Of a DNA stretch of 64,000 nt, positions 7,817-45,045 are shown piece by piece; position 1 is the stretch's first letter, and each line of letters begins with the position of its first letter. Source of the DNA: an uncultured Methanomicrobiales archaeon (GTDB lineage: Archaea; Halobacteriota; Methanomicrobia; Methanomicrobiales; Methanospirillaceae). Made by a program: the position numbers and the translations under genes. The stretch covers positions 1-64,000 of the forward strand of contig CAVWXH010000015.1 of NCBI GenBank assembly GCA_963758915.1, read 5' to 3'. The notes under the pieces were generated by a model. That model saw only the letters and a program-made list of their open reading frames with translations. It searched no databases and was not told the origin of the DNA.

Positions 7817-9973
7817 CTACGTGGCATCCGGTGCAATAGATGGGTCCCGGCACTCCGGTTCTGGTACAAACACCCGTGATGACGACAATTCCGCCATGAA
7901 ATCGTCGATATGATACATATCGCTCAGGACCATCTCGCGGAACCTTGCGGCAGGGATTAAGCCACCGAATTTCCATCCATCTGGTGCAGGGAGCAGGAGG
8001 ACCGATTCCACCTCCTCCCGGGAAAACATCGCTGCCTCCTCCGCAGCATGGACAACCATCCCGAACGGATCGCCACCCCTGACACCGCGCACGAGAAGCG
8101 AGAAGTCATTATAACTGATGCTGCCCCGCAGCCCGAGTGCCCGGGTGAGCAGGGAAGAGTAGAGTTTCCCGAAATTGTTGTTCCTGAAGGTGAGGAGGAG
8201 GAAACCCATCCCCCTTGAGCCCTCCCGTACCTCAATTACGATATCGCCCCGGTGAAAATTTGCCGGGAATTTCGAGATCACCCGTGCCAGGTTAATCACA
8301 GCATCATCAGGGAGCGGAAGAACAGACTTCCCCCTGCGGATTATGCGAGATACACCCCTGCATACCACTTCACTATACCCGTGTGCCCCGCCGGTCCAGA
8401 ATATCCCCCCTTTCTGTTCTGAACCCGGGACCACGACCACCCGGTTACGGGCCTCGTCGCAGGTGATCATCGTCCAGTTTTTCCCACCCAGCTGGAAATT
8501 GGCACTGTTTTTGCTATTCACAAACCTGGCATCAAGCCGACCGACAATCTCGCCATCGGGCGTCACCGCACGGAACTCCCCGCCTCCGTGGATAACCGAA
8601 TACAGGTCACGCCAGTTTGCCTGGCCGAATTCTTTTTCAGCCCGGGAACCCAGCATCAGCATCTCACCATCAGCGACCAGGTACTCTTCGGCCCTCAATT
8701 TTCTGATTGTCTCCTCCACGGCCACAGTCGGGATCTCCCGGAACGGTGTAAGGCCACGTAGTGCTGTGGTGAGACTTTTTGCCGAGACCCTCCTTTTCCG
8801 GAGGATTTCCAGCAGGAGTTGCTGGACAAGCACATTATAGGGGCGCACATGCGGGATGAGCGGCTCCACCTCCTTTTTGCTCGCACACTCGATCACGGCA
8901 ACGGTGCAGAGGAGCTCGCAGGGGTCACGGAGGATGAATGCAACGAACGGTGGTTTTCCCCGCCTCCCGCTCCGCCCCATCCGCTGAAGGAACGAGGAGA
9001 CAGAACCCGGGGAGCCGAGCTGGACCACGATATCAAGGTCACCGATGTCTATCCCGAGTTCAAGCGAGCTGGTGCATACAATACAGGCGCTCCCTTCACG
9101 TGAAAACGCAGATTCCGCCTCACTTCTCGTCTCCGGTGAGAGGGAAGAGTGGTGCACAGAAAGGTGGTCCACACGGCCGCGGAGCGATTTTATCACTTTT
9201 TCTGCATCGCTCCGGCTGTTCACAAAGACGATCGCCTTCTTCCCGGAAACAACCCTGACAAGGGAGGTGATGCGTCTCCCATCATCCGGCTCAACCGTAA
9301 AGGAGAACTTCTTTGCACGTGGCGGGACTGGTACCCGGACAACTTCCTGTGGCCTGCCCGGTTCGGATAACCACCCGAGTACATCCTCAGGGTTCCCGAC
9401 TGTTGCAGAAAGCCCGATCCTCTGCACATTCCTCCCGGCCACCTTGTCCAGCCGGTCGAGAAGGCACCGCAGGTGGACTCCCCGCTCAGATTCGACGAAT
9501 GCATGCACCTCGTCGATGACCACAAACCTGAGGTTTTTCAGGTCGGCCATAAGTTTCCGCTCAAGCATGAGGACTTCAAGGGACTCAGGGGTGATCATCA
9601 GGAAATGGGGGGGTTCCCCGGCAGCCCACGCACGGTCCCCCTTCGGGACATCGCCGTGCCATTTCTGGACCTCAAGGCCTGTCGGGACGGCAAACGTGAG
9701 GAAACGGCTTTCCTGGTCATTGATGAGCGCTTTCAACGGGGAGATATAGATACAGGCAACCCCGCGACATCCCTCTTTTAACATGGTGTCAGTGACCGGG
9801 ATAAGCGCAGCCTCAGTTTTACCCCCGGCAGTCGGTGCGAGGACCAGTACGTCACTGCCTGACCATACCGCCCGGCAGGTCTGTTCCTGCACATCACGGA
9901 GCTCACTCCATCCGAGACGCTGCAGGAGTACTGACTGGAGCGACTCGTGCAACCCCTCATACACCGAAGACAC
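7817..9973 (-). CDS. Lhr-like SF2 DEAD/DEAH-box helicase
   Basis: APTAGGKT, SPLKAL, ITPESL, DEVH, LSAT, LELGIDIG, QRMGRSGR. Confidence 0.9.
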   Translation of the reverse strand: MSSVYEGLHESLQSVLLQRLGWSELRDVQEQTCRAVWSGSDVLVLAPTAGGKTEAALIPVTDTMLKEGCRGVACIYISPLKALINDQESRFLTFAVPTGLEVQKWHGDVPKGDRAWAAGEPPHFLMITPESLEVLMLERKLMADLKNLRFVVIDEVHAFVESERGVHLRCLLDRLDKVAGRNVQRIGLSATVGNPEDVLGWLSEPGRPQEVVRVPVPPRAKKFSFTVEPDDGRRITSLVRVVSGKKAIVFVNSRSDAEKVIKSLRGRVDHLSVHHSSLSPETRSEAESAFSREGSACIVCTSSLELGIDIGDLDIVVQLGSPGSVSSFLQRMGRSGRRGKPPFVAFILRDPCELLCTVAVIECASKKEVEPLIPHVRPYNVLVQQLLLEILRKRRVSAKSLTTALRGLTPFREIPTVAVEETIRKLRAEEYLVADGEMLMLGSRAEKEFGQANWRDLYSVIHGGGEFRAVTPDGEIVGRLDARFVNSKNSANFQLGGKNWTMITCDEARNRVVVVPGSEQKGGIFWTGGAHGYSEVVCRGVSRIIRRGKSVLPLPDDAVINLARVISKFPANFHRGDIVIEVREGSRGMGFLLLTFRNNNFGKLYSSLLTRALGLRGSISYNDFSLLVRGVRGGDPFGMVVHAAEEAAMFSREEVESVLLLPAPDGWKFGGLIPAARFREMVLSDMYHIDDFMAELSSSRVFVPEPECRDPSIAPDAT

Positions 9974-10110
9974 GTTACTTCACCATGTGTCGGACTTAAA
10001 TATCTGTTTTCGGGATGAACGCGTGATTCCGGTATGCCAAAAAGAGAATGTGATCTGCAATTTGTTGCCCTGCCCGACCCTGGTGTGCAATACTGGCATG
10101 AAAAAAAACG

Positions 10111-10118
10111 TATAAATA
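10111..10118 (+). promoter_or_regulatory. TATA box of the Phe-leader/symporter transcript
   Basis: A-rich BRE-like run then tataaata, 31 nt upstream of the conserved GGTAAACT; same spacing as copy 2. Confidence 0.7.
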
Positions 10119-10140
10119 GCAATACCTCGATTGTATGATT

Positions 10141-10285
10141 AGGTAAACTCATGTCTGTAACTACGGGAATACGAAGCAGATCAATCCTGGTTGCAGACTT
10201 TTTATTCTTCTTTAGGTAGGGGACCGGGCGTTCTGCCGGATCCCCTGTAGCGTTTCTCCATAGTTTACCGTAAGGTGTTCGTATG
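10141..10285 (+). promoter_or_regulatory. Structured 5' leader with Phe-rich uORF, copy 1 (candidate attenuator)
   Basis: Conserved with 39961-40117. Stems: ggtaaact(10142-49)/agtttacc(10262-69); gtctgtaac(10153-61)/gttgcagac(10190-98); aggggaccgg/ccggatcccct (10218-10246). Followed by ggtg SD and ATG 10283. Confidence 0.8.
10151..10219 (+). CDS. Putative Phe-rich leader peptide MSVTTGIRSRSILVADFLFFFR (22 aa)
   Basis: Manual translation. Start, frame, Phe run and AGG-TAG end are conserved in the paralog at 39972-40046. Confidence 0.75.
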   Translation: MSVTTGIRSRSILVADFLFFFR

Positions 10286-10396
10286 CTTGGAATTAATGAC
10301 CCCTGGATATTGCTCGCTTATGGCCTTTCAATCGGCCTGGCGCTGGTGTGTGTAGTGTATGGCCTGCTGAACTGGAACACGGGGGGGGAGCCCTGA
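10283..10396 (+). CDS. Symporter small accessory membrane protein (37 aa)
   Basis: MLGINDPWILLAYGLSIGLALVCVVYGLLNWNTGGEP: one TM helix, aggtg SD, stop 1 nt before the symporter ATG. Matches the small proteins that precede methanogen SSS genes. Confidence 0.88.
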   Translation: MLGINDPWILLAYGLSIGLALVCVVYGLLNWNTGGEP

Positions 10397-10397
10397 A

Positions 10398-11978
10398 ATG
10401 GCGGTGAATACCCTTGTCCTCATCTCCGTAACTGCCATTTATGTTGCCCTTATGTTATACCTCGGCTGGCTCGGATATAAAAAGACAAAGACCTCCGAGG
10501 ATTACATGGTCGCCGGGAGAGAGGCCCACCCGGTAATTATCGCCCTTTCCTACGGGGCCACATTCATCAGCACATCTGCTATTGTCGGGTTCGGTGGACA
10601 GGCCGCAAATCTCGGTATGGGACTGATCTGGCTTACCGTGCTGAACATCGGCCTGGGTATCCTGCTGGCTTTCGTCGTATTCGGTAAGAAGACCAGGGAG
10701 ATCGGGCAGCGGCTGAAAGCGGTCACCTTCCCTGACCTGATGGGAAAAATTTACCAGTCACCGTTTATGCAGGTTGTTACAGGGCTGGTCATCATTGTCG
10801 GCATGCCACTGTACACCGCTGCCGTACTGATTGGCGGGGCACAGTTTATCAGGGAAACGACCTCCATCTCGTACAGCACGTCACTCATTGGATTTGCCCT
10901 GATCGTTGCTGTATACGTGATATTCGGCGGACTGATCGCCGTAATGTACACCGATGCGGTCCAGGGGGCCATTATGCTCGTCGGGATGACCATTCTCCTG
11001 GTTGCAACGTACCTCCTCCTGGGCGGCGTTAATGCCGCAAACAGCAGCCTTACCGCGATGGCGCCACTTGTTCCGGAAAACCTTGCAAAAGGTGGCATGA
11101 CCGGCTGGACAACGATGCCCGTTTTCGGGTCCTCCATATGGCTGACCGTGATCACGACCCTTGTCCTCGGGGTAGGGATCGGTGTTCTCGCCCAGCCTCA
11201 GCTGGTTGTCCGGTTTATGACGGCAAAGAACAACAAATCATTAAACAGGGCAGTCCTCATCGGGGGTCCTTTCATCCTGATGATGACCGGGGTGGCGTTC
11301 ACGGTCGGCGCCCTCACGAATGTGTATTTCTACCAGACGGTTTCAAAAATTGCAGTCCAGGTGGCGCCCGGCGGTAATGTGGACACGATCATCCCGATCT
11401 TCATCAACCAGGCAATGCCGGACTGGTTCGTGGTACTGTTCATGGTAACACTGCTTGCTGCGGCGATGTCCACGCTGAGTTCCCTCTTCCATACGATGGG
11501 GACAGCCCTGATATGCGACCTCTGGGGGAGGGGGCGCCAGTGTGCATTATCAATGAGGGCAAACCAGGTGGGTGTGCTGATCATGATTATTGCGAGTGTG
11601 ATTATTGCATTCCTGATGCCGGGCAGTATCATCGCCCTCGCAACCGCGATGTTCATGGGGTTATGTGCCTCTGCATTCCTCCCGGCCTTCGCCGTGGCGA
11701 TGTATTCCAGAAAACCGGATGTAACTGCTGCAAAGGCCAGTTTAATCACCGGTGCTGTCGTGTGGTTTATCTGGGCGCTTTTCATCAATACCCGGTATGC
11801 ATCAGTATACGGGCTCTGCAAGGCACTTACCGGCAAGACCAGCCTCGCGGGGCTTCCCTGGGCTGCTGTCGACCCGCTCGTCATCGCACTCCCGCTTTCC
11901 GCAGCGGTTATTATTATATTACAGTTCTATGCAGACCGCAGAAACGCGGAGGCAACGCCTTCCTCTCCAGCCACATAG
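10398..11978 (+). CDS. Sodium:solute symporter (SSS, PutP/PanF-like)
   Basis: EDYMVAGR, ALSYGATFISTSAIVGFGG, GGLIAVMYTDAVQG, QPQLVVRFM, AAAMSTLSS; about 13 TM helices. Confidence 0.95.
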   Translation: MAVNTLVLISVTAIYVALMLYLGWLGYKKTKTSEDYMVAGREAHPVIIALSYGATFISTSAIVGFGGQAANLGMGLIWLTVLNIGLGILLAFVVFGKKTREIGQRLKAVTFPDLMGKIYQSPFMQVVTGLVIIVGMPLYTAAVLIGGAQFIRETTSISYSTSLIGFALIVAVYVIFGGLIAVMYTDAVQGAIMLVGMTILLVATYLLLGGVNAANSSLTAMAPLVPENLAKGGMTGWTTMPVFGSSIWLTVITTLVLGVGIGVLAQPQLVVRFMTAKNNKSLNRAVLIGGPFILMMTGVAFTVGALTNVYFYQTVSKIAVQVAPGGNVDTIIPIFINQAMPDWFVVLFMVTLLAAAMSTLSSLFHTMGTALICDLWGRGRQCALSMRANQVGVLIMIIASVIIAFLMPGSIIALATAMFMGLCASAFLPAFAVAMYSRKPDVTAAKASLITGAVVWFIWALFINTRYASVYGLCKALTGKTSLAGLPWAAVDPLVIALPLSAAVIIILQFYADRRNAEATPSSPAT

Positions 11979-12216
11979 AAAAATATCTGGGTTTTAAGCC
12001 CATTTTTTCTTTTTACGCAGGCCAGGACGTTTTAGAGAGGACCCTCAACACCGGGCATCCATATATCCGCCGGGTTCAACATGGCAACCCGGATGGATAA
12101 CTCTCTAACCCTGCCTATTTTAGTAATTTATTACCTATTCACGTGTAGTATATGAGTGTGAAGTCCCGGGACCAACCCGGGGTATTCCCCACCAGAAGAC
12201 CCAGAGGAGTTATGAA

Positions 12217-12696: not shown

Positions 12697-15600
12697 TCAA
12701 TCAAGTTTCCGGTTTCTCGTATAGATACTGAATACTACCAGAACAAAGATCGAAACTATCGCTGCTGCTTCAATAAGCATAGTAAATATGGAGTTCGTGG
12801 GTTGTGGGGGGAGCACAGGGGGATTCGCTGCCGGTGCATTCGATACCCGTGGAACAGGACTGGCAGAAGGCTGGCCCGCTGCTACGGATTCAGTGGTTAA
12901 AGAATTGGGTTCCCTGTTGTTACCCGATGAGGCACCAGAGGTCCCTTCCTGAACGGTTCCCGATTGGCTTCCTTTTGTTGCTGCGGGTTCTGATGCGGCC
13001 TGAGTTACCTGGTTGCCACTTCCGCCATAGCTCCCGCCACCGCCGCCTCCGCCTGAATTTGGATTACTCGCCGGGACTGGAGGAGGCACTCTGATTGAGA
13101 GACTGAGGTAAAGCATCTGAAGAGGATTTGTATAATGACCTACGGTAACAAGTGTAAATTGTGAAAGCCCGTTCGGAGAAATCCCTTCAAATACGTCAAC
13201 ATTCCTGGTTTCGTCATAATAGAGGAATTTTGTCTCTAATACCTCGATAGAGCCCAGGTCACCGACCCTGATTATTTCAACAGGTTCATAGACATCTGTC
13301 AGACCACCCAGATCGTTGTTTACAACCCAGTCAGAATTTACCGCAACCGTGATAGTATGCGGATTTTCATAAATGAAACCTGATGGATATACCAGTTCAA
13401 TTCCTGCATCAGATACGTTATGGCTTCCAACAACAGGGATGTACAAAAGGGAAAGATCGATCCCATCAGTTGATGTCACTACGTAATAGTACCTGTTTTC
13501 GGAGATATTTTGATAAGCGAACATGGTCTCGAGCGGCGTGAACGACCCATCGTTATTCATTTGTTCAACCTTAAACCGGTCATGGAGATCGACAAACGGA
13601 CTATGTTTTACTACCCATTCGTGGCTGACCGCCATAACAACGGTTGCCGGACCGTTGACAGACATATTATTCTCAATACAATACATTGAATTTGCCACAC
13701 CGGATACATAGTCGCCATAATCTGCGTCCTGCACAGTAATATTAAATTTTTCATGTTCTTCAGGCGTTATTTCATCGGTAATGGATGTTTTTATTGAACC
13801 CTCCGGATAATACTGAGGCATTTCGAAGGTGTAATTCACCCATGAATTGTCACCGATTGTATCAGAAAATTCTGCTGATGAGATATCTTCGCTGGTTGTA
13901 ATTAATTTTTCAATAATTCCGGATATAATTGGACTCTGGGAAGAAAATGTGGTATTTTCCCTGGATACCAGAGTAAATGACGGCGACATTCCTTTTTCCT
14001 GAGGAATGATAAATAATTGTGTGTTATTCACGCCAAGTTCAAACGAATAACCAGTTCCATTCGATGTGTTTATTTCCATGAAGCCAGTATCCGATGAATA
14101 CTGGACAATGCCGGGGATTGTGTAAAGTGACACGTATTCTGTGGATTTTATAACATGAACATATCCAATTGCGGTATTGTTACCAAACTGGTTCCCTGTT
14201 GTTAATGAGATGATGTAATTGCCCGGGTTAACAAAAACATGGGATGGATTTTGTTCGTTTGACGAAGAATTATCCCCAAAATCCCAATACCATGTGTCCG
14301 GATAACCTGATGATAAATCTGTAAGCGTGGAGGACAGAGGAGCCAGACCAGAAGAAGGATTAATAGTAAATTTTGTTACGGGAACCGCCCCGGCAACGAT
14401 TAAATGTTCCTGCACAGAGTAATCCCGCGAGTACGGATTACTAACTATCAGTGCAGGACTAAAATGCCCTGCTTCCTGATATGTATAAACCGGGTTCACA
14501 TCAGATGATTCATTTCCATCGCCAAAATTCCAATAGTGAGAAGTTGGATTACCTGATGATGTATCGGTAAAACGGACCGTGAATGGAACCATTCCCTCGG
14601 TCGCATTTACGGTAAACCCAGATACCACGGGAGCCTGTTCCTGACCAAGTGTAAACAGGTAGATATTATAATCAAGAAATTCCTGATTTTCTGCCCATAC
14701 TATCCGCTCCCCGTATACCCTGGCATTAGTCCTGTGAGCATTCGGAAATGCATAGGTAATAACTGAGGTTTCATTCGTTTCCAGGTTGTAAACGTAAATA
14801 TTTTCATTCCCATAGGACTGGTCCCGGTTGTCATCCCATACAATATAATTTCCAAAAATTGAAGGCCGTTTTTGGTCAGACTCGTCAGTACCTGGAGTTA
14901 TCAGCGTTTTTTCGTGTGTTGTAATATTATACATTACAATATCATAGTGCTCGTCATGCCATTCCTGCCAGACGAGTCGATCATTGTGAATTGAAGGGGG
15001 TGACTGGAAAAATGATTTACAGTTGCTTGCAATGGTGGTGGAGTTCCCGGTTGCAACATGAAATAGATTGAGTGTTGCATCTTCTTCGGTACCGGCATAC
15101 CATGCGACCCAGTCACCATATATTGCAGGATACATATGTTCAGGGCCTGATTCGTCATTTGTGAGATAACGTGTTTCATTCGTAGTGATGTTATAGAGTA
15201 CAATGTTCCGGGTCCCTTTCGTGTCGTCGGTATAAACGATGCGGTCTTCAAAAATTGCTGGATCAATCTGGTTATACCAGTCCCCGGGAGTCAGTGTCAA
15301 TTCGATACCGGTAGAAATAGTGTACATATTGATATCATAGGTACCGTAATAGCTGTCCTGGATACCGTATACCAGAACATCATTATATATCGAGGGCTTC
15401 CAGGGACTTTTATTGCTGATGGTCTCTTCCCTGCAGGTTGTAATATTATACAAACGAACTGCCTGTTCACCGTTGCGATAATCGAGCCATACCAGGTTGT
15501 CCAAGAAGACAGAAGGGTAGATTTGATCTGAGCCGTCGGTACCCACGGTTATTGTGGTCATTGTCCCACCTTCGGTATTCTGAATATTAGTGCTCTTAAT

Positions 15601-15990
15601 GATCTCTTCCGAAAAATTCACCCTAAATCCATTATTTGAGTTTGCATCGGGAACGGGTCCAATTATTCCCCTGGTATTTTCAGCTGTTTTTTGTGTAGTA
15701 TTCAGCGAAGTCTGATTAAATTCGGGGGAGTTTTGCAACCCCAGACTGCCTTTTGGACGGTTCGGTATCGGATCAGGAAAAACAATATTTTGATGATCGG
15801 TCTGATTTGTGTCTGAATCAGATACATTATTGTACACGGTAAAATTATCAGCGTGAATATCCATTAAGGGGTTATTAACAGATATGGGATCATTGCCACC
15901 ATTGCTGCCTGTCAGATTATGAGCTGACACAGGAAGACACAATAGACAAAAGATTAGTACCCCGGTACATATTTTCCAAACAGAAGACAT
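12697..15990 (-). CDS. Large surface protein: beta-propeller repeats, 2 PKD domains, duplicated PGF-pre-PGF-like domain, C-terminal TM anchor
   Basis: Signal peptide MSSVWKICTGVLIFCLLCLPVSA; repeated 'P.I....IVW.D.R....I..YN' blades; PKD motifs WNFGDG/WDFGDN; poly-Gly linker; TM helix plus basic tail. Confidence 0.88.
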   Translation of the reverse strand: MSSVWKICTGVLIFCLLCLPVSAHNLTGSNGGNDPISVNNPLMDIHADNFTVYNNVSDSDTNQTDHQNIVFPDPIPNRPKGSLGLQNSPEFNQTSLNTTQKTAENTRGIIGPVPDANSNNGFRVNFSEEIIKSTNIQNTEGGTMTTITVGTDGSDQIYPSVFLDNLVWLDYRNGEQAVRLYNITTCREETISNKSPWKPSIYNDVLVYGIQDSYYGTYDINMYTISTGIELTLTPGDWYNQIDPAIFEDRIVYTDDTKGTRNIVLYNITTNETRYLTNDESGPEHMYPAIYGDWVAWYAGTEEDATLNLFHVATGNSTTIASNCKSFFQSPPSIHNDRLVWQEWHDEHYDIVMYNITTHEKTLITPGTDESDQKRPSIFGNYIVWDDNRDQSYGNENIYVYNLETNETSVITYAFPNAHRTNARVYGERIVWAENQEFLDYNIYLFTLGQEQAPVVSGFTVNATEGMVPFTVRFTDTSSGNPTSHYWNFGDGNESSDVNPVYTYQEAGHFSPALIVSNPYSRDYSVQEHLIVAGAVPVTKFTINPSSGLAPLSSTLTDLSSGYPDTWYWDFGDNSSSNEQNPSHVFVNPGNYIISLTTGNQFGNNTAIGYVHVIKSTEYVSLYTIPGIVQYSSDTGFMEINTSNGTGYSFELGVNNTQLFIIPQEKGMSPSFTLVSRENTTFSSQSPIISGIIEKLITTSEDISSAEFSDTIGDNSWVNYTFEMPQYYPEGSIKTSITDEITPEEHEKFNITVQDADYGDYVSGVANSMYCIENNMSVNGPATVVMAVSHEWVVKHSPFVDLHDRFKVEQMNNDGSFTPLETMFAYQNISENRYYYVVTSTDGIDLSLLYIPVVGSHNVSDAGIELVYPSGFIYENPHTITVAVNSDWVVNNDLGGLTDVYEPVEIIRVGDLGSIEVLETKFLYYDETRNVDVFEGISPNGLSQFTLVTVGHYTNPLQMLYLSLSIRVPPPVPASNPNSGGGGGGGSYGGSGNQVTQAASEPAATKGSQSGTVQEGTSGASSGNNREPNSLTTESVAAGQPSASPVPRVSNAPAANPPVLPPQPTNSIFTMLIEAAAIVSIFVLVVFSIYTRNRKLD

Positions 15991-16123
15991 TTCTAACCCC
16001 CCTACGCAGGACTGATACGATTGCGTATAATACAAGCATCGAATCGATTATATTAAAGGGTATCCCCGCTTCCTCAAACTCTTACCATTTCCGGTGAAAT
16101 CCGGTAAAAAAGAAGATAGTGAT

Positions 16124-22493: not shown

Positions 22494-22568
22494 AGCGAGG
22501 TAGGGTAGTCAGGATATCCCGACGGGCTCATAACCCGTAGACCGATGGTTCAAATCCATCCCTCGCTA
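22494..22568 (+). tRNA. tRNA-Met(CAT), initiator
   Basis: Acceptor stem AGCGAGG/CCTCGCT (A1-U72), anticodon arm ACGGG-CTCATAA-CCCGT with three consecutive G-C pairs, T arm GATGG-TTCAAAT-CCATC; upstream tatataa and downstream T tract. Confidence 0.97.
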
Positions 22569-38666: not shown

Positions 38667-39818
38667 TCACAACTGGACAAGGTATTCATAGGCTTCCAGC
38701 GCTGCCTTGGCCCCTTCTCCTGCTGCGATGATGATCTGTTTGCCCTTGATATTCGTTACATCTCCTGCAGCAAAAATTCCAGGGACACTGGTGTGACAGT
38801 TAATATCGATAATGATCTCTTTCTGGTCATTGAGCTTCACCAGGTCTGATACAAAATCCGTGTTAGGTGACCAGCCGATCTCAGCAAATACTCCATCGAG
38901 GGTAATTTTTGATTCTTCACTGGTGAGCCGGTCTTTGATAGTGATTGCGTTAAGGAGGTTATCCCCGTGAAGCATGGTCACGACCGAATTGGAATGGAGA
39001 ATAATATTTTTTTGTGCCTCGAAGAGCTTGACATACACTTCGTCAGCCCGGATAGTACTTCTTACAATCAGGTGAACTTCCCTGGCAATTCTGCTCATTT
39101 CGACCGCAGTCTGAAGGGCTGAATTCCCCCCTCCTACAATGGCAACGACCTTGTTTTTGAATAACGGGCCATCACAGGTTGAACAGATTGAAAGGCCCCT
39201 GCCGAGAAAACGTTCCTCCCCATCGACACCGAGTTTTTTCGGTTGTTTCCCTGGTGCAAGGATAACAGCTCGCGCAAGGTAGGTAGTATCCGTGGCAGTA
39301 TGGATTGTAAATATTCCATCAGACGGGATAATTTCCCGGACCCCGTCCAGTTCCAGGCTGATCTTCTGCTCCTTGACCTGGTCCTCAAATTTCTTCATCA
39401 GCTCATCGCCGGTGATCATCCGGTACCCCATGTAGTTCTCGATGGTCCAGCTTTCAAGGGCCTGGCCCCCGATATTTTCAGTGATGACCACGGCGGTGAG
39501 GAGCTTCCTCGCACAGTATACGGCAGCGGTCAGTCCGGCCGGCCCTGCACCGATTATAACAACATCAAGAATATCCCCTTCGGTCCCGGTACCAAAAATT
39601 TCATTGAGTCGCTGGGCATCAAACCCGACAATTATCTCGTCGTCGATCGTGATGACCGGGACACCACGCTGACCGGAGATCCCGATCATGTGCTTTGCTG
39701 CTCCCTCGTCCTCCCCGACATCGATTGATGTAAAAGGGATGTTGTGTTTCTCGAGAAACGCCTTTGCCATCCTGCAGTAGGGGCAGTTTTTTGTTGAATA
39801 TACGGTTACCTGCGGCAT
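38667..39818 (-). CDS. Glutaredoxin-thioredoxin reductase fusion
   Basis: N-terminal CPYC..GQRGVPV Grx domain; GAGPAG, CSTC redox motif, GGGNSA, GIFAAGD. Start ATG 39818. Confidence 0.93.
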   Translation of the reverse strand: MPQVTVYSTKNCPYCRMAKAFLEKHNIPFTSIDVGEDEGAAKHMIGISGQRGVPVITIDDEIIVGFDAQRLNEIFGTGTEGDILDVVIIGAGPAGLTAAVYCARKLLTAVVITENIGGQALESWTIENYMGYRMITGDELMKKFEDQVKEQKISLELDGVREIIPSDGIFTIHTATDTTYLARAVILAPGKQPKKLGVDGEERFLGRGLSICSTCDGPLFKNKVVAIVGGGNSALQTAVEMSRIAREVHLIVRSTIRADEVYVKLFEAQKNIILHSNSVVTMLHGDNLLNAITIKDRLTSEESKITLDGVFAEIGWSPNTDFVSDLVKLNDQKEIIIDINCHTSVPGIFAAGDVTNIKGKQIIIAAGEGAKAALEAYEYLVQL

Positions 39819-39931
39819 TGATACCCTGCATTTCAGATGTATCCGGATATAAAGATGCTGGAACACCCGGGATTAATCTAACAGAATAGTTCAATCCAAC
39901 CCCGCACTGCCATGTCATAGCATAGCAAGGA

Positions 39932-39939
39932 TTAAGTAT
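39932..39939 (+). promoter_or_regulatory. TATA box of the Phe-leader/binding-protein transcript
   Basis: ttaagtat, 31 nt upstream of GGTAAACT, the same offset as copy 1. Confidence 0.6.
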
Positions 39940-39960
39940 TCCGGAATCAAAAACCTTACT

Positions 39961-40117
39961 AAGGTAAACTTATGTCTGTTACTATATGCAGGAGAGGCAC
40001 GGATATTGTGCAGGTAACAGGCGCCTCCTTTTTCTTCTTTAGGTAGGGGACCGGTGCTATAGCCGGATCCCCTGTATAGGCATTATAGAGAGTTTACCGG
40101 ATGGTGTTTTTATCATG
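39961..40117 (+). promoter_or_regulatory. Structured 5' leader with Phe-rich uORF, copy 2 (candidate attenuator)
   Basis: Stems: ggtaaact(39963-70)/agtttacc(40091-98); gtctgttac(39974-82)/gtaacaggc(40014-22); aggggaccgg/ccggatcccct (40045-40073). Then ggtg SD and ATG 40115. Confidence 0.8.
39972..40046 (+). CDS. Putative Phe-rich leader peptide MSVTICRRGTDIVQVTGASFFFFR (24 aa)
   Basis: Manual translation. Differs in length from copy 1 by exactly 2 codons, so the frame is preserved; ends ttt ttc ttc ttt agg tag. Confidence 0.75.
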   Translation: MSVTICRRGTDIVQVTGASFFFFR

Positions 40118-40246
40118 TGTAAAATTTTTCTAATCCCACATAATGAGGCAAAAAGGCGGAATGACAGCATTACTATCGAGGACACATGCCCCTGTCTCGC
40201 CGATGGTATGGCCTGCAGGAATCTTTCAGCCCGGAGGACATTCTGA
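40115..40246 (+). CDS. Putative 43-aa Cys-containing small ORF coupled to the binding-protein gene
   Basis: MCKIFLIPHNEAKRRNDSITIEDTCPCLADGMACRNLSARRTF; ggtg SD at the conserved leader position; TGATG overlap with the next start. Confidence 0.45.
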   Translation: MCKIFLIPHNEAKRRNDSITIEDTCPCLADGMACRNLSARRTF

Positions 40247-41571
40247 TGAGAACCAGCACGATTATTCTGGTATTAATGGCGGTGGGGCTTATCCTCGGAG
40301 GTGTTGCCATTTCAGGATGCACCCAGCAAGCCTCTGCATCGCCAAATGAGGTTAAGATCGGGGTTGTCGCGTCATTAACCGGCCCCGCGAGTGCGACAGG
40401 GAAAGACATGTGGCAATCGGCACAAATTGCCGCTGATGAAATAAATGCCAATGGAGGGGTTTATGTACAGGAGTTCGGGAAGAAAATCCCGGTAAAAGTA
40501 ATTGTCGGTGATGATGAATCAACCCGTGAAGGCGGCCAGAAAGCCGTTACAAAACTTATTTCCTCTGATAAGGTCGATGCCCTTGTCGGTGGTTTTTCGA
40601 GCGCCGTGACGACGGCACACCAGTCTGTTGTTGCAGAATACAAGGTGCCTTACGTCATAACCGGGGCATCAAGCCCGACCATCACGAGGAGGACGGATAT
40701 TGATACATCCTACATGTATCACTTCTGCCCGACTACCGATGATTACGGGGGCCAGACGACCAGGTTTATCAGCAACTTCCTCAGGCCGGCCATTTACAGA
40801 AAATTTAATTTCAGTGAAGACAGGCCCCTGAGGCTCGCAATTATTTACCAGGACAGTCCCTATGGGAAAGGAGTCCTCACGGCGGTTGAAAACACGATAA
40901 AGAAGGAGAATTTACCTGTCAGGATTGTGAGCAACGAATCGTTTAAAATGGGGGAAACCGACTTCAGGACATTGCTCACCAATGTCAAGGCTTCCCAACC
41001 CGACGTGATTTATTCAGCAGCCTTCCTGAATGAACAGGCGCCCATGATCACTCAGGGCCGGAGGGATGTCGGGATGAACACCATATTCGTGGTGGTCGAG
41101 TGCAACGACGATCCGGATTATTACAAGGGTCTCAGCAGGTATGGCGAAGGATCAATCATTGAAAGCCATTTCAGCCCATATACTGTGCCCAATGGGACTA
41201 CGTCCAACGCTGCAATTGCATTCAAGAGTGACTACCAGAAAAAGTGGGGCGGACTCCCCGGCATGATGGGTGCTACAACCTATGAGGGGGTAAAAATTGT
41301 TGCAAATGCAGTAGGGCAGGCGGGTTCACTCGATAAAACAAAGATCAAGGATGCCCTTGGGGCAACAAACATGCCTGAAACAATAGAGGCGATGAAGGAT
41401 GGGAAAATCTCTTTCTCAAAGGACGCCCGTGAGGCTGCCTTCAACCTCTACATGGAACAGCTTGTCTGGAACGAGACTGTCCAGGAACTACGGCCGAATA
41501 TTATTTATCCTGCTGAACTGAGCCAGGGCAGTTTTGTACTCCCTGACTGGTACCAGCCGGGAACAACCTGA
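40246..41571 (+). CDS. LivJ/LivK-like ABC substrate-binding lipoprotein
   Basis: Signal peptide with ISGC lipobox, KIGVVASLTGP, EINANGG, GGFSS, GETDFRTLL; ggagga SD. No permease or ATPase adjacent. Confidence 0.92.
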   Translation: MRTSTIILVLMAVGLILGGVAISGCTQQASASPNEVKIGVVASLTGPASATGKDMWQSAQIAADEINANGGVYVQEFGKKIPVKVIVGDDESTREGGQKAVTKLISSDKVDALVGGFSSAVTTAHQSVVAEYKVPYVITGASSPTITRRTDIDTSYMYHFCPTTDDYGGQTTRFISNFLRPAIYRKFNFSEDRPLRLAIIYQDSPYGKGVLTAVENTIKKENLPVRIVSNESFKMGETDFRTLLTNVKASQPDVIYSAAFLNEQAPMITQGRRDVGMNTIFVVVECNDDPDYYKGLSRYGEGSIIESHFSPYTVPNGTTSNAAIAFKSDYQKKWGGLPGMMGATTYEGVKIVANAVGQAGSLDKTKIKDALGATNMPETIEAMKDGKISFSKDAREAAFNLYMEQLVWNETVQELRPNIIYPAELSQGSFVLPDWYQPGTT

Positions 41572-41678
41572 GCCGGGGTTCCTGCGGATAACCGGGATCC
41601 CTCCAGAACCTCAGTATTTTTTTGGGTGGTCCCAACGGCTGGGAGCCAAAAAAACGATTGCTGGTTTTAATGTAATCT

Positions 41679-42179
41679 CTATACGATTTCTTTGAATACT
41701 TTTTTAAATGCACTGCAGATCGGGCACCTTTCCGGGGGTTCACCACGGAAGATGTTCCCGCAGATCGGACAAAGGATGACTTTCTGCGCGGAAAGGTCGT
41801 GCCCTGCACTGATCGCCTTCAATGCCTCCTTGTAAAGATTGGCGTGGACTTCTTCTGCTTTCATTGCATATGTGAAGGCGATGACTGCATCGCTCTGTTT
41901 CTCTGCTTCCCCTTCCTTAACGAAACCCGGGTACATCTCGGTATATTCGTGAGTCTCTCCGGTAACGGAAGCTTTTAAGTTGTCTTCAGTTTTACCGATT
42001 GACCCAAGCACTTTCAGGAGTCGCTTTGCATGAATCGCTTCCGCTTCTGATGCAGCGGTGAAGAGCTTTGCAACATTGGTAAACCCTTCATCCTTTGCCT
42101 TGTCAGCGAATGCCGAATATTTTCGGTTTGCCTGCGATTCCCCGGCAAACGCATCCATTGCGTTTTCTTTTGTTGCCAT
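41679..42179 (-). CDS. rbr: Rubrerythrin
   Basis: AFAGESQANRKY, EAIHA, GETHEYTEMYP, EEVHA, CPICG..CPIC. Confidence 0.95.
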   Translation of the reverse strand: MATKENAMDAFAGESQANRKYSAFADKAKDEGFTNVAKLFTAASEAEAIHAKRLLKVLGSIGKTEDNLKASVTGETHEYTEMYPGFVKEGEAEKQSDAVIAFTYAMKAEEVHANLYKEALKAISAGHDLSAQKVILCPICGNIFRGEPPERCPICSAFKKVFKEIV

Positions 42180-42427
42180 GATCATCTAGTGGGGCAAAAT
42201 AAGTAATAACTGTATTCATCGTTCTGGTACCGGAGTGACAATACTGTTGTGTACCATTTTTAGAGAATTGTGATCCTGTGTAGGGATAATCAAAAAAACA
42301 GATAGTATTCCGGAACCCTTTTACACCATCACCACACCACGCTGATATCTGAAATACTTCCGGCAGAGCCCATGGTTAGAACCGGCCGGTTGAAGATATT
42401 TCCGGGTGACAGGACACGGAGGTCGGT

Positions 42428-43096
42428 ATGAGGAAAATGAAGCAGATGCCGGAGCGTGACCGGCCAAGGGAACGGATACGTCGTCTTGGTCCTGGGGCGC
42501 TTTCTGACAGGGACTTAATTGCAGCCATTATAGGCAGGGGTATCCCTGGAAGGGACGTGCTGGTGGTGGCAGGAGATATAGAGAAAGAACTGAGTTCCGG
42601 CAGGGAGCACCTGACCTATGAAAAACTGGAGGAGATCCAGGGCGTGGGACCGACAAAAGCCGCACAAATATCTGCATGTTTCGAACTATCACGCCGATAC
42701 CCGGTTAAAGATGATGCTGCGGCTCATAAAATAACCCGTCCGGAAGACGCCCTGCCCCTCCTCCATGGAATTTCAAACAAGAAACAGGAGTATTTCATCT
42801 GCATTACCATGAACGGGGCAGGGGAGGTTATAGGGAACCGTATCATAACCGTCGGACTGCTGAACCACAGCCTTGTCCACCCCAGGGAGGTCTTTGCCGA
42901 TGCGATTACGGACCGGGCTGCATCGATCATCTGTGTCCATAATCACCCGTCCGGGACACTTGAACCAAGTCCGCAGGACCTTGAGGTGACGAGGCAGCTG
43001 ACAGAAGCGGGGGCGATCCTCGGCATCCGGCTCCTTGACCACCTTATCGTAACAAAAGACGGCCACCTCTCGATGAAGGAGAAAGGTTACATTTAA
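42428..43096 (+). CDS. radC: RadC/JAB-domain protein
   Basis: RPRER..GPGALSD, HhH GVGPTKA, VHPREVF, HNHPSG...PSPQD, LLDHLIV. Confidence 0.93.
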   Translation: MRKMKQMPERDRPRERIRRLGPGALSDRDLIAAIIGRGIPGRDVLVVAGDIEKELSSGREHLTYEKLEEIQGVGPTKAAQISACFELSRRYPVKDDAAAHKITRPEDALPLLHGISNKKQEYFICITMNGAGEVIGNRIITVGLLNHSLVHPREVFADAITDRAASIICVHNHPSGTLEPSPQDLEVTRQLTEAGAILGIRLLDHLIVTKDGHLSMKEKGYI

Positions 43097-43333
43097 CCCA
43101 GTTACTCCCCGAAACTTCGCATAAATCGGAGTCCTGTCCTCCTTCATTATGCAGGTCTCGTGTTCCTTGCACTACATAATTACCATGCGGGGATTATAAC
43201 CGGGAAATGGTACTACGATCTTCTCAACCCCGCATCCGGCGTCGGCCGCACCCCGGAGTGCCTGGGAACGTAATTTTGCCATATTCCCTCTTTCATGGGG
43301 ACTGCCAAAGAGACCGGTTATATCCATTGCCAT
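43097..43333 (-). pseudogene. Truncated Isf/flavodoxin remnant
   Basis: MAMDITGLFGSPHERGN...YNPRMVIM*CKEHETCIMKED: decayed Cys motif, in-frame TAG, then runs into the radC 3' end. Confidence 0.65.
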
Positions 43334-43488
43334 GATAGGAACGTATCCATAAACGGTGCGATATCGCTTATGTGTCACCCGGGTGCGGTCCGGTTTTCCC
43401 CAAAGATCGGGTAGTTCCATGAAATCCTGGCAATTTAAGAGAACAAACACAACTAATAAATAATTCCCTGCACCTATTACAAAAATAG

Positions 43489-43728
43489 GTGAAAGTTTTG
43501 ACCGAAAACAAACAGTACAAAGCAGGCTCAAAGGTCGGCCCTGGGAAATATGTATGCCTCGATTGCGGAAAGGAATATGAACTTGACAAGAGTGAACAGG
43601 ACCTCCGTAAGTGCCCTGCATGCGCCTGTGAAGAGTACCAGTGTTTACCAATGCATCACATCAGGCCGGATGTAAAAACTCCGGAAGATGCGAAGAACCC
43701 ACCAAAGCGTGGCCAGAGCAACCAGTAA
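43489..43728 (+). CDS. Small zinc-ribbon protein
   Basis: GPGKYVCLDCG...CPAC; GTG start. Confidence 0.75.
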   Translation: MKVLTENKQYKAGSKVGPGKYVCLDCGKEYELDKSEQDLRKCPACACEEYQCLPMHHIRPDVKTPEDAKNPPKRGQSNQ

Positions 43729-43857
43729 TACAATTTTTTTCTTCATCAGACTGGCGGAACATACGAACACCGGTAATGGATAGATCTCATACGCAGATCC
43801 TGTTCATGACCGGAAAGGCAGTATGCCTTTCCAGAATATTCCAAAGGATTGAGCACG

Positions 43858-43986
43858 ATGGTAAATGTATCGAAAGAAGGACAGGTCTACGAATGCGAGA
43901 TCTGTGGCAATGTAGTGGTAGTAAAGGCAGTAGGCGGGGGAGAACTCGTCTGTTGCGGTGAACCGATGAAACTTATCGAAGGGTGA
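43858..43986 (+). CDS. Desulforedoxin-like protein (stand-alone FeS4 domain, 42 aa)
   Basis: Manual translation [42 protein letters not shown] (CxxC..CCG.PM); below the ORF-track cutoff. Confidence 0.9.
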
Positions 43987-43991
43987 ATGAA

Positions 43992-44336: not shown

Positions 44337-44348
44337 GGAGGAAACTGC

Positions 44349-44996: not shown

Positions 44997-45045
44997 AAAA
45001 TTCATCAACAATCTTTTTTTATCCTACGCCACCAAAGGCTCATTC

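What the first reader, a model, noticed from the sequence alone, without database searches (positions are those of the whole stretch)
10111..11978. Candidate archaeal phenylalanine leader-peptide attenuator (copy 1) controlling a Na+/solute symporter
Seen: TATA (10111), then a transcript predicted to start near GGTAAACT, a uORF at 10151-10219 (MSVTTGIRSRSILVADFLFFFR*), a GC-rich hairpin beginning inside the stop codon, AGTTTACC, an SD, the accessory protein and the SSS gene. The same architecture recurs at 39.96 kb before an unrelated transporter. Established: bacterial pheL/pheM/trpL/hisL leaders sense charged tRNA through runs of cognate codons, and archaea couple transcription and translation. 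To my knowledge such attenuators are not established in archaea. Inference: ribosome stalling on the Phe codons under Phe limitation turns on the transporter. The Phe codons also form a U-rich tract like an archaeal termination (aCPSF1/FttA) signal, so a stalled ribosome could mask it.
Basis: partly seen in the sequence, partly recalled or inferred. Interest (0 to 1): 0.93.

Follow-up and report, generated by a model that had tools for sequence, protein, structure and literature searches.

The report
Phenylalanine leader peptide in methanogen mRNAs
A tiny, phenylalanine-rich reading frame set in a folded mRNA leader sits in front of transporter genes, and in one genus a Phe-tRNA synthetase gene, across a whole order of methanogenic archaea, and looks like an archaeal counterpart of the bacterial amino-acid-sensing leader peptides.

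Summary
Each has a TATA-like box and a transcript that probably starts at GGTAAACT. A 22- or 24-codon uORF follows, ending FFFR-TAG, with a GC hairpin beginning in the stop codon. Then come AGTTTACC, an SD and the next gene.

- **The uORF is conserved as a reading frame.** Among 148 distinct homologous leaders, an in-frame ATG lies 15-45 codons upstream with no stop in 145. The other two frames give 16 and 1.
- **This holds without ascertainment bias.** It is 86 of 89 in leaders found by a model that contains nothing upstream of the stop.
- **The end is Phe-rich.** The frame takes 19 different lengths. Phe is at -2 in 147 of 147 and at -4 in 138 of 147. The last residue is Arg in 137 of 147, using all six Arg codons.
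- **The RNA is structured.** GGTAAACT and AGTTTACC pair and covary, closing a three-way junction.
- **Distribution.** 102 of 151 genomes of the class have it, against 0 of 133 genomes from other families of the phylum.
- **Downstream genes.** Mostly the SSS symporter with its small accessory protein, sometimes a LivK-like binding protein, and pheS in three species of one genus.

A Phe-sensing leader peptide is well supported. How it changes expression is not resolved. No terminator, no SD-unmasking switch and no general U4-tract signal was found. Rfam and six literature searches gave no described archaeal equivalent.

The parts
10111..10118 (+). TATA-like box of copy 1 (TATAAATA)
   Evidence: Read. 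It lies 31 nt upstream of the GG of the 5' helix arm. A TTTAAATA-like octamer starts at -33 to -28 in 105 of 139 leaders, with the mode at -31. The transcript start near 10141-10143 is inferred from this, not measured.
10142..10149 (+). P1 5' arm (GGTAAACT). Probably the 5' end of the mRNA and a weak SD-like GGU for the uORF.
   Evidence: It pairs with 10262-10269 in the minimum-energy fold. Covariation is shown. Cognate arms pair better than permuted arms.
10151..10219 (+). uORF, 22 codons plus TAG: MSVTTGIRSRSILVADFLFFFR*
   Evidence: Read. Frame, start and stop are conserved in homologs.
10153..10198 (+). P2 hairpin inside the uORF (codons 1-16)
   Evidence: Seen in the fold. In 105 representative leaders the uORF body folds better than dinucleotide shuffles, with mean z -1.50.
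10199..10216 (+). Single-stranded Phe block plus last sense codon (TTT TTA TTC TTC TTT AGG)
   Evidence: Across leaders Phe is at -2 in 147 of 147 and at -4 in 138 of 147, and Arg is at -1 in 137 of 147.
10217..10247 (+). P3 GC-rich hairpin whose base includes the TAG stop codon
   Evidence: The core G-C pairs are kept in 97-101 of 102 sequences.
10262..10269 (+). P1 3' arm (AGTTTACC), ending 2 nt before the SD
10272..10277 (+). SD (AAGGTG) of the first downstream cistron
   Evidence: Read. An aligned GGAGG/AGGTG block lies 5-9 nt before the ATG in alignment A3.
10283..10396 (+). Symporter small accessory protein, 37 aa
   Evidence: NCBIfam NF045580, E 8.5e-18, 64.2 bits against a cut-off of 35.
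10398..11978 (+). Sodium:solute symporter (SSS family), 526 aa
   Evidence: PF00474, E 1.2e-50. TIGR00813, 185.3 bits against a cut-off of 184. The substrate is not known.
11988..12012 (+). Operon terminator-like hairpin plus T tract
   Evidence: TGGGTTTTAAGCCCA followed by TTTTTTCTTT.
39932..39939 (+). TATA-like box of copy 2 (TTAAGTAT)
   Evidence: It lies 31 nt upstream of the GG at 39963.
39963..39971 (+). Copy 2, P1 5' arm
   Evidence: Fold.
39972..40046 (+). Copy 2 uORF, 24 codons plus TAG: MSVTICRRGTDIVQVTGASFFFFR*
40044..40076 (+). Copy 2, P3 hairpin starting in the stop codon
   Evidence: Model R1 gives a 71.4-bit hit at 40044-40123.
40090..40098 (+). Copy 2, P1 3' arm
40115..40246 (+). 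Relay ORF, 43 codons of unconserved sequence. Its TGA overlaps the ATG of the binding-protein gene.
   Evidence: The stop-start overlap is present in 15 of 15 distinct leaders of this type.
40246..41571 (+). LivK-like periplasmic binding protein (Peripla_BP_6). No ABC permease or ATPase gene is adjacent.
   Evidence: PF13458, E 1e-52. The start at 40246 is inferred from the signal peptide and from the homologs' starts. The next gene is a convergent rubrerythrin.

Best explanation
This is a ribosome-mediated, phenylalanine-sensing leader: an archaeal leader-peptide attenuator in the broad sense.

The mRNA probably starts at the GG of GGUAAAC. A ribosome loads on the AUG 8-13 nt further on and translates a 17-43-codon uORF. 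Only the end of the uORF is conserved: a Phe-rich block, F-x-F-R, and a UAG that sits in the base of a GC hairpin (P3).

When Phe-tRNA(Phe) is scarce the ribosome waits on the Phe codons, above all on the invariant UUU at -2. There its leading edge is inside P3. Ribosomes behind it queue back to the start and cover the 5' arm of the closing helix P1. The leader then cannot fold into its three-way junction, and the SD/AUG lying 1-4 nt after the 3' arm of P1 is used. Translation is handed on to the symporter, binding-protein or pheS gene through overlapping or adjacent stop and start codons.

When Phe is plentiful the uORF is cleared quickly. P1, P2 and P3 form, the 5' end and the uORF start are locked away, and downstream expression falls.

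Shown here: the reading frame, the Phe-rich end, helices P1 and P3, the tendency of the uORF body to form P2, the promoter spacing, the gene associations and the distribution.

Inferred: stalling, the queue, the direction of the response, and whether the output is translation initiation, RNA stability or termination.

I give about 0.6-0.7 to a translated uORF that reports Phe supply in cis. I give about 0.3 to the specific queue-and-P1 mechanism.
For: 1. **Coding constraint.**
   - An in-frame ATG lies 15-45 codons upstream with no stop in 145 of 148 distinct leaders. The other two frames give 16 and 1.
   - Of the three misses, L142 was mis-anchored by my script. Read by eye it is in frame.
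   - L156 and L163 have an in-frame TTG directly after GGTAAA.
   - In leaders found by model R1 the count is 86 of 89, against 8 and 1. R1 begins at the TAG.
   - The uORF takes 19 different lengths between 17 and 43 codons, all in frame.
2. **C-terminal pattern**.
   - Phe at -2 in 147 of 147 and at -4 in 138 of 147.
   - Arg at -1 in 137 of 147, using AGA, AGG, CGA, CGG, CGT and CGC.
   - 4.25 Phe in the last 8 residues, against 1.9% Phe in the N-terminal parts. Some leaders have up to 10 Phe in the last 12.
   - In the model-ascertained set: Arg 78 of 88, TTT at -2 in 87 of 88, Phe at -4 in 83 of 88.
3. **Link to Phe.** The leader precedes pheS (PF01409, E 5.4e-72) in 3 of 4 species genomes of one genus.
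4. **Other contexts are uptake genes.** 123 of 146 leaders precede the accessory protein plus SSS, and 15 precede a binding protein.
5. **Structure.**
   - Named P1+P3 structure: 79.6% of cells paired, against 49-53% when slid by one column. There are 97 double-change cells against 49.3 +/- 4.9 in shuffles (0 of 500). 5 of 8 P1 pairs change on both sides.
   - Cognate P1 arms give -10.2 kcal/mol against -8.24 +/- 0.23 for permuted partners (0 of 2000).
   - P2 mean z is -1.50.
6. **Promoter spacing** puts the RNA 5' end at P1.
7. **Relay ORFs.** In 15 of 15 binding-protein leaders, relay ORFs with unconserved sequence end overlapping the gene's ATG. So what happens at the leader-proximal AUG is passed on by translation.
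8. **Distribution.** 102 of 151 genomes and 28 of 32 genera of the class have it, against 0 of 133 genomes of other families of the phylum.
Against: - **No expression data.** The only RNA runs found hold short contigs inside the SSS gene and none over the leader.
- **No SD-unmasking switch.** Mean unpaired probability of the SD-AUG window is 0.43 free, 0.43 with a ribosome at the uORF start, 0.44 stalled on Phe and 0.44 at the stop, in 76 leaders.
- **The SD does not pair with the leader.** It hardly pairs with the Phe block (0.017) or with P3 (about 0).
- **No classic terminator.** No terminator-like site lies between the uORF and the next AUG. Only 46 of 146 leaders have 5 or more T there.
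- **RNAalifold support is thin.** On the broad MAFFT alignment it recovered only 4 pairs of P3, not P1 or P2. P1 therefore rests on my named structure and on per-sequence duplex tests.
- **RNA and coding constraints overlap at the uORF end.**
  - The third base of the last codon pairs with a U after P3 (AU 39, GU 37).
  - AGR makes up 131 of the 137 Arg codons, against 31% genome-wide.
  - AGY, which encodes Ser, occurs 9 times.
  - So conserved Arg is only partly a protein-level signal.
- **A nucleotide-level constraint is unexplained.** The -2 codon is TTT in 145 of 147 leaders although TTC is the commoner Phe codon.
- **Substrates are unknown** for both the symporter and the binding protein.
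- **The pheS link comes from one genus.** In two of its three species the relay ORF stops 20-35 nt before pheS instead of overlapping it.
- **Leaders are related by descent,** so the counts overstate independent support.
Confidence: 0.62

Rival explanations
1. A nascent-peptide arrest sensor of the TnaC/SpeFL kind. The conserved end F-x-F-R followed by a stop makes the ribosome stall at termination when a small molecule sits in the exit tunnel. The molecule could be free Phe, an aryl acid or something else. The stalled ribosome, not hungry codons, sets downstream expression.
For: - Conservation is position-specific: Phe -2 in 147 of 147, Phe -4 in 138 of 147, Arg -1 in 137 of 147 with six codons.
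- The stop is always TAG in the leaders examined, apart from one degenerate copy. This is partly by construction, because the model includes TAG.
- SpeFL also ends in a Phe-rich stretch followed by Arg-stop (recalled, not checked in a call).
Against: - There is no conserved sensor segment. The N-terminal two thirds differ completely between genera.
- The number of Phe varies from 2 to 7 in the last 8 residues and reaches 10 in the last 12. That is typical of regulatory codon runs.
- Uptake genes and pheS fit an 'on when Phe is short' logic better than induction by free Phe.
- The conservation of TAG, of G at codon position 2 and of a purine at position 3 of the last codon is also explained by the P3 helix.
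Confidence: 0.12
2. The uORF is translated but senses nothing specific. Its translation only couples the first ribosome to RNA polymerase or unfolds the leader. The Phe codons are then a by-product of a U-rich tract needed for pausing, termination or aCPSF1/FttA binding. This includes the first reader's masking idea.
For: - 94 of 146 leaders have a run of 5 or more T in the uORF tail.
- In copy 1 the P2 hairpin is followed directly by TTTTTATTCTTCTTT. That resembles the operon terminator at 11988-12012.
- aCPSF1 binds U tracts (PMC8716108, passages read).
Against: - 42 of 146 leaders have no U4 tract and only 31 have two or more. Two U4 tracts were the minimum for efficient aCPSF1 binding in M. 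maripaludis.
- The C residues in the tract fall at third codon positions, and the interruptions are whole in-frame codons. So Phe, not merely U, is selected.
- The link to pheS is not expected for an unspecific device.
Confidence: 0.12
3. A purely RNA-level element: a riboswitch or a protein-binding three-way junction. The open frame would be incidental.
For: - The RNA is a conserved three-way junction with covarying P1, conserved P3 and UGUA.
- It lies in a 5' leader of transporter genes, as many riboswitches do.
Against: - Frame, start and stop are conserved across 19 length classes: 145 of 148 against 16 and 1 in the other frames.
- Junction J2/3 varies in length and is made of in-frame codons, and J3/1 is not conserved. 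There is no conserved pocket.
- Rfam gave no match, even at E up to 10.
Confidence: 0.05
4. The uORF encodes a functional small hydrophobic peptide, for instance a transporter subunit, not a regulator.
For: - It sits in an operon that already encodes a 36-45-aa accessory membrane protein.
- Its end is hydrophobic.
Against: - Only the last 4-8 residues are conserved. The rest is unrelated between genera and is shaped by P2 pairing.
- The same uORF precedes a soluble binding protein and pheS.
Confidence: 0.03

Closest known systems
Bacterial ribosome-mediated transcription attenuators for phenylalanine (pheL of pheA, pheM of pheST in E. coli). Recalled knowledge.
   Same: - A short leader ORF at the 5' end has a run of Phe codons close to its stop.
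- The leader RNA is structured.
- It controls an operon tied to Phe, here including pheS in one genus.
   Different: - The host is archaeal.
- No hairpin-plus-U terminator lies between the leader ORF and the first gene.
- No terminator/antiterminator alternative was found.
- The stop codon lies inside a hairpin.
- A long-range helix ties the mRNA 5' end to the sequence just before the next SD.
- The main targets are transporters, not biosynthetic genes.
Mycobacterial polycysteine leaderless short ORFs (Canestrari et al., bioRxiv 10.1101/834739; abstract and outline read)
   Same: - A 5'-terminal short ORF has a run of one amino acid's codons.
- Ribosomes stalled in the run change translation of the downstream gene without a terminator.
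- Several loci form a regulon.
   Different: In that system the stalled ribosome blocks a duplex that sequesters the downstream ribosome-binding site. Here the SD does not pair with the Phe block or with P3, and its accessibility does not change in constrained folds.
Arrest peptides acting at a stop codon (TnaC, SpeFL). Recalled knowledge.
   Same: - The last residues before the stop are conserved.
- RNA next to the stop codon matters.
- The element acts in cis on downstream genes.
   Different: - There is no conserved upstream sensor segment.
- The Phe count varies.
- The factor-dependent termination step is unknown in this lineage.
Termination-reinitiation coupling of overlapping gene pairs in archaea (Huber et al. 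2019, Nat Commun 10:4006). Seen only as a passage and reference in PMC7531240.
   Same: ATGA and TGATG overlaps join the relay ORF to the binding-protein gene (15 of 15). The accessory gene and the SSS gene are also overlapping or adjacent.
   Different: This explains only how the signal is passed on, not how it is generated.

Membership tests
Classical leader-peptide transcription attenuator (pheL/pheM/trpL/hisL type) | Short translated leader ORF with a run of regulatory codons for one amino acid | tested here: met
   The frame is conserved in 145 of 148 leaders, against 16 and 1 in the other frames. There are 4.25 Phe in the last 8 residues against 1.9% Phe elsewhere in the peptide. Translation itself is inferred from conservation, not measured.
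Classical leader-peptide transcription attenuator (pheL/pheM/trpL/hisL type) | Regulated genes belong to synthesis, charging or supply of the same amino acid | tested here: inconclusive
   pheS lies downstream in 3 of 4 species of one genus. The main targets are an SSS symporter and a LivK-like binding protein, whose substrates are unknown.
Classical leader-peptide transcription attenuator (pheL/pheM/trpL/hisL type) | Intrinsic terminator (hairpin plus U run) after the leader ORF, with a mutually exclusive antiterminator | tested here: not met
   No terminator-like site was found in the leader. Only 46 of 146 leaders have 5 or more T between the stop and the next ATG. Constrained folding showed no alternative fold. 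Archaeal termination rules differ, so this does not exclude factor-dependent termination.
Classical leader-peptide transcription attenuator (pheL/pheM/trpL/hisL type) | Expression responds to charged tRNA level | not testable with these tools
   No usable RNA or ribosome-profiling data were found.
Translational attenuator (ermC, cat, mycobacterial Cys short ORFs) | A ribosome stalled in the leader ORF melts a structure that sequesters the downstream ribosome-binding site | tested here: not met
   SD-AUG unpaired probability is 0.43, 0.43, 0.44 and 0.44 in the four ribosome states. SD partners are the Phe block at 0.017 and P3 at about 0. A steric effect of P1, which ends 1-4 nt before the SD, cannot be tested by folding.
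Stop-codon arrest peptide (TnaC/SpeFL type) | Invariant residues at the peptide's end and a conserved stop context | tested here: met
   F-x-F-R then TAG: Phe -2 in 147 of 147, Phe -4 in 138 of 147, Arg -1 in 137 of 147. Part of this is also explained by the P3 helix.
Stop-codon arrest peptide (TnaC/SpeFL type) | Conserved sensor residues further up the nascent chain | tested here: not met
   The N-terminal parts are unrelated between genera.
Riboswitch or other described RNA family | Match to a curated covariance model; conserved unpaired ligand pocket | tested here: not met
   Rfam 15 gave no match at gathering score over the window, other than a tRNA. It gave none up to E = 10 on 10050-10400. 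The junction strands vary in length and sequence.

The most novel reading that the evidence does not exclude
This is the first amino-acid-sensing leader peptide of Archaea. It is present in most genomes searched of the order Methanomicrobiales and is built differently from the bacterial ones. It has no terminator. Instead a 5'-terminal closing helix joins the mRNA's first nucleotides to the sequence just before the next ribosome-binding site, the stop codon is buried in a hairpin, and the peptide always ends F-x-F-R. It would read Phe-tRNA supply through ribosome stalling and queuing. It would control Phe uptake and, in one genus, Phe-tRNA synthetase, as a small ribosome-directed regulon.
Probability: 0.55. 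Interest if true: 0.9.

Novelty: new variant of a known kind. Interest (0 to 1): 0.84.

Why it matters
Ribosome-mediated attenuation is a textbook bacterial mechanism. My six searches of the held library and the passages I read found no described archaeal example. One paper's introduction states in general terms that uORFs regulate in archaea.

This leader is conserved, easy to recognise and found across a whole order. That makes several open questions testable:
- whether archaeal ribosomes report amino-acid supply in cis;
- how translation talks to RNA folding, decay or aCPSF1/FttA termination in archaea;
- what the widespread SSS symporter with its small accessory protein transports in methanogens. 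Phe or an aromatic precursor would be the prediction.

It also gives a natural, compact Phe-responsive control element for methanogen genetics.

Tried and rejected
- **Rfam.** No family matched.
- **SD-unmasking model.** Constrained partition-function folding of 76 leaders, with a ribosome footprint at the uORF start, on the Phe block or at the stop, gave no consistent change. MFE folds with long flanks were dominated by inconsistent long-range pairs.
- **RNAalifold on 102 leaders.** Only 4 pairs of P3 were returned. Model R1 likewise carries only 4 pairs.
- **RNA evidence.** Eleven metatranscriptome runs share 5-19% of the sampled words. Laying four of them gave 15 short contig pieces. All lie inside the SSS gene (10548-11839) and none over 9950-10547. 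This says nothing about the leader.
- **-1 or +1 frameshifting at the U-rich tract, and a K-turn at the base of P3.** I considered both by eye and dropped them. The slippery heptamer, the spacing and the GA pairs are not general (AGG, AGA and CGN all occur).
- **T-box-like tRNA binding.** I considered it and dropped it because the frame is conserved.
- **Other amino-acid-run leaders in the own genome.** I ran a crude six-frame scan for 12-45-codon ORFs with 5 or more identical residues in the last 10. Nothing convincing turned up. Most candidates lie inside longer genes. The scan is not exhaustive, and it also misses the two Phe leaders, which have 4 of 10.
- **P3 3' arm as an anti-SD mimic for the main SD.** The pairing is weak by eye and absent in the ensembles.
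- **Supplementary files** of papers were not opened. Supplementary data of the M. mazei Ribo-seq paper (PMC11456600) or of the aCPSF1 papers could list uORFs or leader 3' ends that I could not see.


Full report
**What is in the window**

Copy 1 reads as follows:
- TATAAATA at 10111-10118;
- GGTAAACT at 10142-10149;
- ATG at 10151, opening a 22-codon uORF (MSVTTGIRSRSILVADFLFFFR) that ends with TAG at 10217-10219;
- a GC-rich hairpin at 10217-10247 whose base contains the stop codon;
- AGTTTACC at 10262-10269 and the SD AAGGTG at 10272-10277;
- a 37-aa 'symporter small accessory protein' at 10283-10396 (NF045580, E 8.5e-18);
- an SSS-family symporter at 10398-11978 (PF00474, E 1.2e-50);
- a hairpin plus T tract that closes the operon at 11988-12012.

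Copy 2 (39932-40246) has the same parts. Its uORF has 24 codons (MSVTICRRGTDIVQVTGASFFFFR). It precedes a Peripla_BP_6 (LivK-like) binding protein (E 1e-52). That gene stands alone. The next gene is a convergent rubrerythrin.

The two leaders are 79% identical over 227 aligned columns. The core motif occurs only at these two places in the 2.38-Mb genome. Rfam has no family for it.

**The leader is a family**

- blastn against 60 relatives found full-length homologs in the same genus and partial ones in other genera and families.
- A 15-nt degenerate motif found it in 62 of 401 genomes of the order. By my count the reversed control gave 7 hits.
- Covariance model R1 was built only from the stop codon onwards. 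It matched 102 of 151 genomes of the class, in 28 of 32 genera. It matched none of 133 genomes from the other families of the phylum.
- Titles of related public records name Methanomicrobiales, Methanoregulaceae, Methanoregula, Methanolinea and Methanospirillum.
- From all loci I collected 148 distinct leaders.

**Is the uORF a reading frame?**

- An ATG lies 15-45 codons upstream of the TAG, in frame and without a stop, in 145 of 148 leaders. The other two frames give 16 and 1.
- Of the three misses, L142 was mis-anchored by my script. Read it is in frame. L156 and L163 carry an in-frame TTG directly after GGTAAA.
- In the leaders found by R1, which holds nothing upstream of the TAG, the count is 86 of 89 against 8 and 1.
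- The uORF has 19 different lengths (17-43 codons), with peaks at 22 and 24 and a second group at 31-33.
- Indels are whole codons. One example is an extra TTC in L012.
- The N-terminal parts are unrelated between genera: MSVTTGIR.., MDHTPVAP.., MSRLQD.., MPAQRD.., MIGN..ES.., MNARICP...
- The end is fixed. Phe is at -2 in 147 of 147 and at -4 in 138 of 147. Position -3 is variable. Arg is at -1 in 137 of 147, Ser in 9 and Ile in 1.
- All six Arg codons occur: AGA 71, AGG 59, CGA 3, CGT 2, CGC 1, CGG 1.
- In the model-ascertained set the figures are Arg 78 of 88, TTT at -2 in 87 of 88, and Phe at -4 in 83 of 88.
- Phe makes up 4.25 of the last 8 residues but 1.9% of the N-terminal parts. Some leaders of one family have 8-10 Phe in the last 12-13 codons.
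- Within the tract the C residues fall at third codon positions, and interruptions are complete codons.

I conclude that the frame is translated and that Phe codons, not merely U residues, are selected.

**Constraints that are not purely protein-level**

- The -2 codon is TTT in 145 of 147. Yet TTC is 57.5% of Phe codons in this genome's long ORFs and 64% at the other Phe positions of the leaders.
- The last codon is AGR in 131 of the 137 Arg cases, against 31% genome-wide.
- Its third base pairs with a U that follows P3 (AU 39, GU 37).
- Coding and RNA constraints therefore overlap at the uORF's end, and 'conserved Arg' is only partly a peptide signal.

**RNA structure**

Single-sequence folds give a three-way junction (z -2.5 and -3.4). 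Its parts are:
- P1, formed by GGUAAACU with AGUUUACC;
- P2, a hairpin that contains uORF codons 1-16;
- a single-stranded Phe block;
- P3, which starts in the stop codon.

Evidence on 102 diverse leaders and 105 representatives:
- My named P1+P3 structure has 79.6% of cells paired, against 49-53% when slid by one column.
- It has 97 double-change cells against 49.3 +/- 4.9 in shuffles (0 of 500).
- Five of the eight P1 pairs change on both sides, for instance AU 46, UG 16, UA 12, GU 6 and CG 4 at one pair.
- Variant helices include GGAUACCUC/GAGGUACC, GGUAUUUUG/CAAAAUACC and GGUAUUCAG/CUGAAUACC.
- Cognate P1 arms pair at -10.2 kcal/mol, against -8.24 +/- 0.23 for permuted partners (0 of 2000).
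- The uORF body folds better than dinucleotide shuffles. Mean z is -1.50, below -1 in 66%, below -2 in 31% and above 0 in 15% of 105.

Against this, RNAalifold run de novo on the same MAFFT alignment returned only four P3 pairs. Support for P1 and P2 therefore depends on the tests above.

A TTTAAATA-like octamer starts 28-33 nt upstream of the GG of P1 in 105 of 139 leaders, with the mode at 31. By the usual archaeal TATA-to-start spacing (recalled) this puts the RNA 5' end at P1. The uORF AUG then lies 8-13 nt from that end in 128 of 139.

**What it controls**

- Of 146 leaders with a defined next AUG, 123 are followed by the 36-45-aa accessory protein and then the SSS symporter.
- 15 are followed by a binding-protein gene, and one by pheS.
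- The remaining seven are degenerate copies or wrong start calls by my script.
- The pheS case (PF01409, E 5.4e-72) recurs in 3 of 4 species genomes of that genus.
- In the binding-protein type the AUG after P1 opens a 40-46-codon ORF of unconserved sequence. In some genomes it still begins MFGISD like the accessory protein.
- The stop of that ORF overlaps the gene's ATG (ATGA or TGATG/TAATG) in 15 of 15 leaders.
- For pheS the relay overlaps by 10 nt in one species and stops 20-35 nt short in two.
- Such overlaps support termination-reinitiation coupling in archaea (Huber et al. 2019, seen as a passage in PMC7531240).
- So whatever the leader does is read out at the AUG next to P1 and passed on by translation. 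Alternatively, the relay keeps the RNA covered by ribosomes.

**How it might work**

The gene set (uptake plus PheRS) and the codon run argue for 'on when Phe-tRNA is short'. The output step is open.
- I found no terminator between the uORF and the next AUG.
- I found no change of SD accessibility with a ribosome placed at the start, on the Phe block or at the stop: 0.43, 0.43, 0.44 and 0.44.
- I found no pairing of the SD with the Phe block or with P3.
42 of 146 have no U4 tract in the uORF tail, 73 have one and 31 have two or more. Two U4 tracts were the minimum for efficient aCPSF1 binding in M. maripaludis (PMC8716108, passages).

My preferred model is an inference.
- A ribosome waiting on the -2 UUU has its front edge in P3.
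- Followers queue back over the start and the 5' arm of P1.
- P1, which ends 1-4 nt before the SD, therefore stays open and the next AUG is used.
- With ample Phe the leader closes into the junction and locks its own start.
- The uORF length classes (21-26 and 31-33 codons) are compatible with whole numbers of ribosomes. They are confounded by phylogeny.

Rivals are:
- arrest at the stop codon with a small-molecule ligand;
- an unspecific coupling or U-tract device;
- a pure RNA element;
- a functional micropeptide.

**Comparison and novelty**

The element works like the bacterial Phe leader peptides. It fails their defining terminator/antiterminator feature.

It resembles the mycobacterial poly-Cys short ORFs in being 5'-terminal and terminator-free (10.1101/834739, abstract). 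It fails their RBS-sequestering duplex.

Six searches of the held paper library found no described archaeal amino-acid-sensing leader peptide. Passages read in four papers gave the same result. One introduction states generally that uORFs regulate in archaea. Supplements were not available.

I file it as a new variant of a known kind, found in most genomes searched of one archaeal order. The sensor part has strong comparative support. The effector part has none yet.

Noticed in passing
L137:2028-2357 (+), and the third ORF of many loci of the same genus: In the Methanoregula-type genus a 110-aa pterin-4a-carbinolamine dehydratase gene follows the SSS gene on the same strand (PF01329, E 5.6e-21 for L137). 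In bacteria this enzyme works with phenylalanine hydroxylase (recalled), so this may be a further faint link to aromatic amino acids.
   Followed up: partly
L178 (a second hit in genome G164): This is a degenerate extra copy of the leader. The stop position reads AAG instead of TAG. The accessory-like ORF is divergent, and the next gene of 433 codons is not an SSS homolog by blastp. It may be a decaying duplicate.
   Followed up: no
Loci of family f5, e.g. L022, L041, L043, L120, L136: The uORFs of this family carry one to three tandem copies of a roughly 8-10-codon unit (..C.x.VQN..). This lengthens the uORF from 21-23 to 27-33 codons while keeping the frame and the AFFFR end.
   Followed up: no
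window 40115-40246 and homologs L013, L016, L018: The relay ORF of the binding-protein leaders still starts MFGISD/MFVISD in some genomes, like the accessory protein. This leader type therefore arose by duplication of the symporter leader together with the first codons of the accessory gene.
   Followed up: partly
window 38667-46271: Copy 2 sits in a cluster of redox and oxidative-stress genes: a glutaredoxin-pyridine nucleotide-disulphide oxidoreductase fusion (38667-39866, -), rubrerythrin (41679-42185, -), a RadC-like protein (42428-43096), peroxiredoxin (44349-44996) and two FMN reductases (45046-46271).
   Followed up: no
window 7817-9973 (-): An Lhr-like DEAD/DEAH helicase gene of 718 codons (DEAD, Helicase_C and WH_Lhr domains) lies on the opposite strand and ends about 140 nt upstream of the copy-1 promoter.
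   Followed up: no
window 12697-16035 (-): A 1112-aa ORF with PKD domains lies convergent to the symporter operon.
   Followed up: no
window 22494-22568 (+): A tRNA gene, the only Rfam match in the window (66.1 bits).
   Followed up: no
window 10236-10247 and the aligned P3 3' arms in A3: The 3' arm of P3 (GGAUCCCCU) resembles the 3' tail of archaeal 16S rRNA (GGAUCACCU, recalled), and the 5' arm is SD-like. I did not check this genome's 16S, and I found no pairing of this arm with the main SD.
   Followed up: partly
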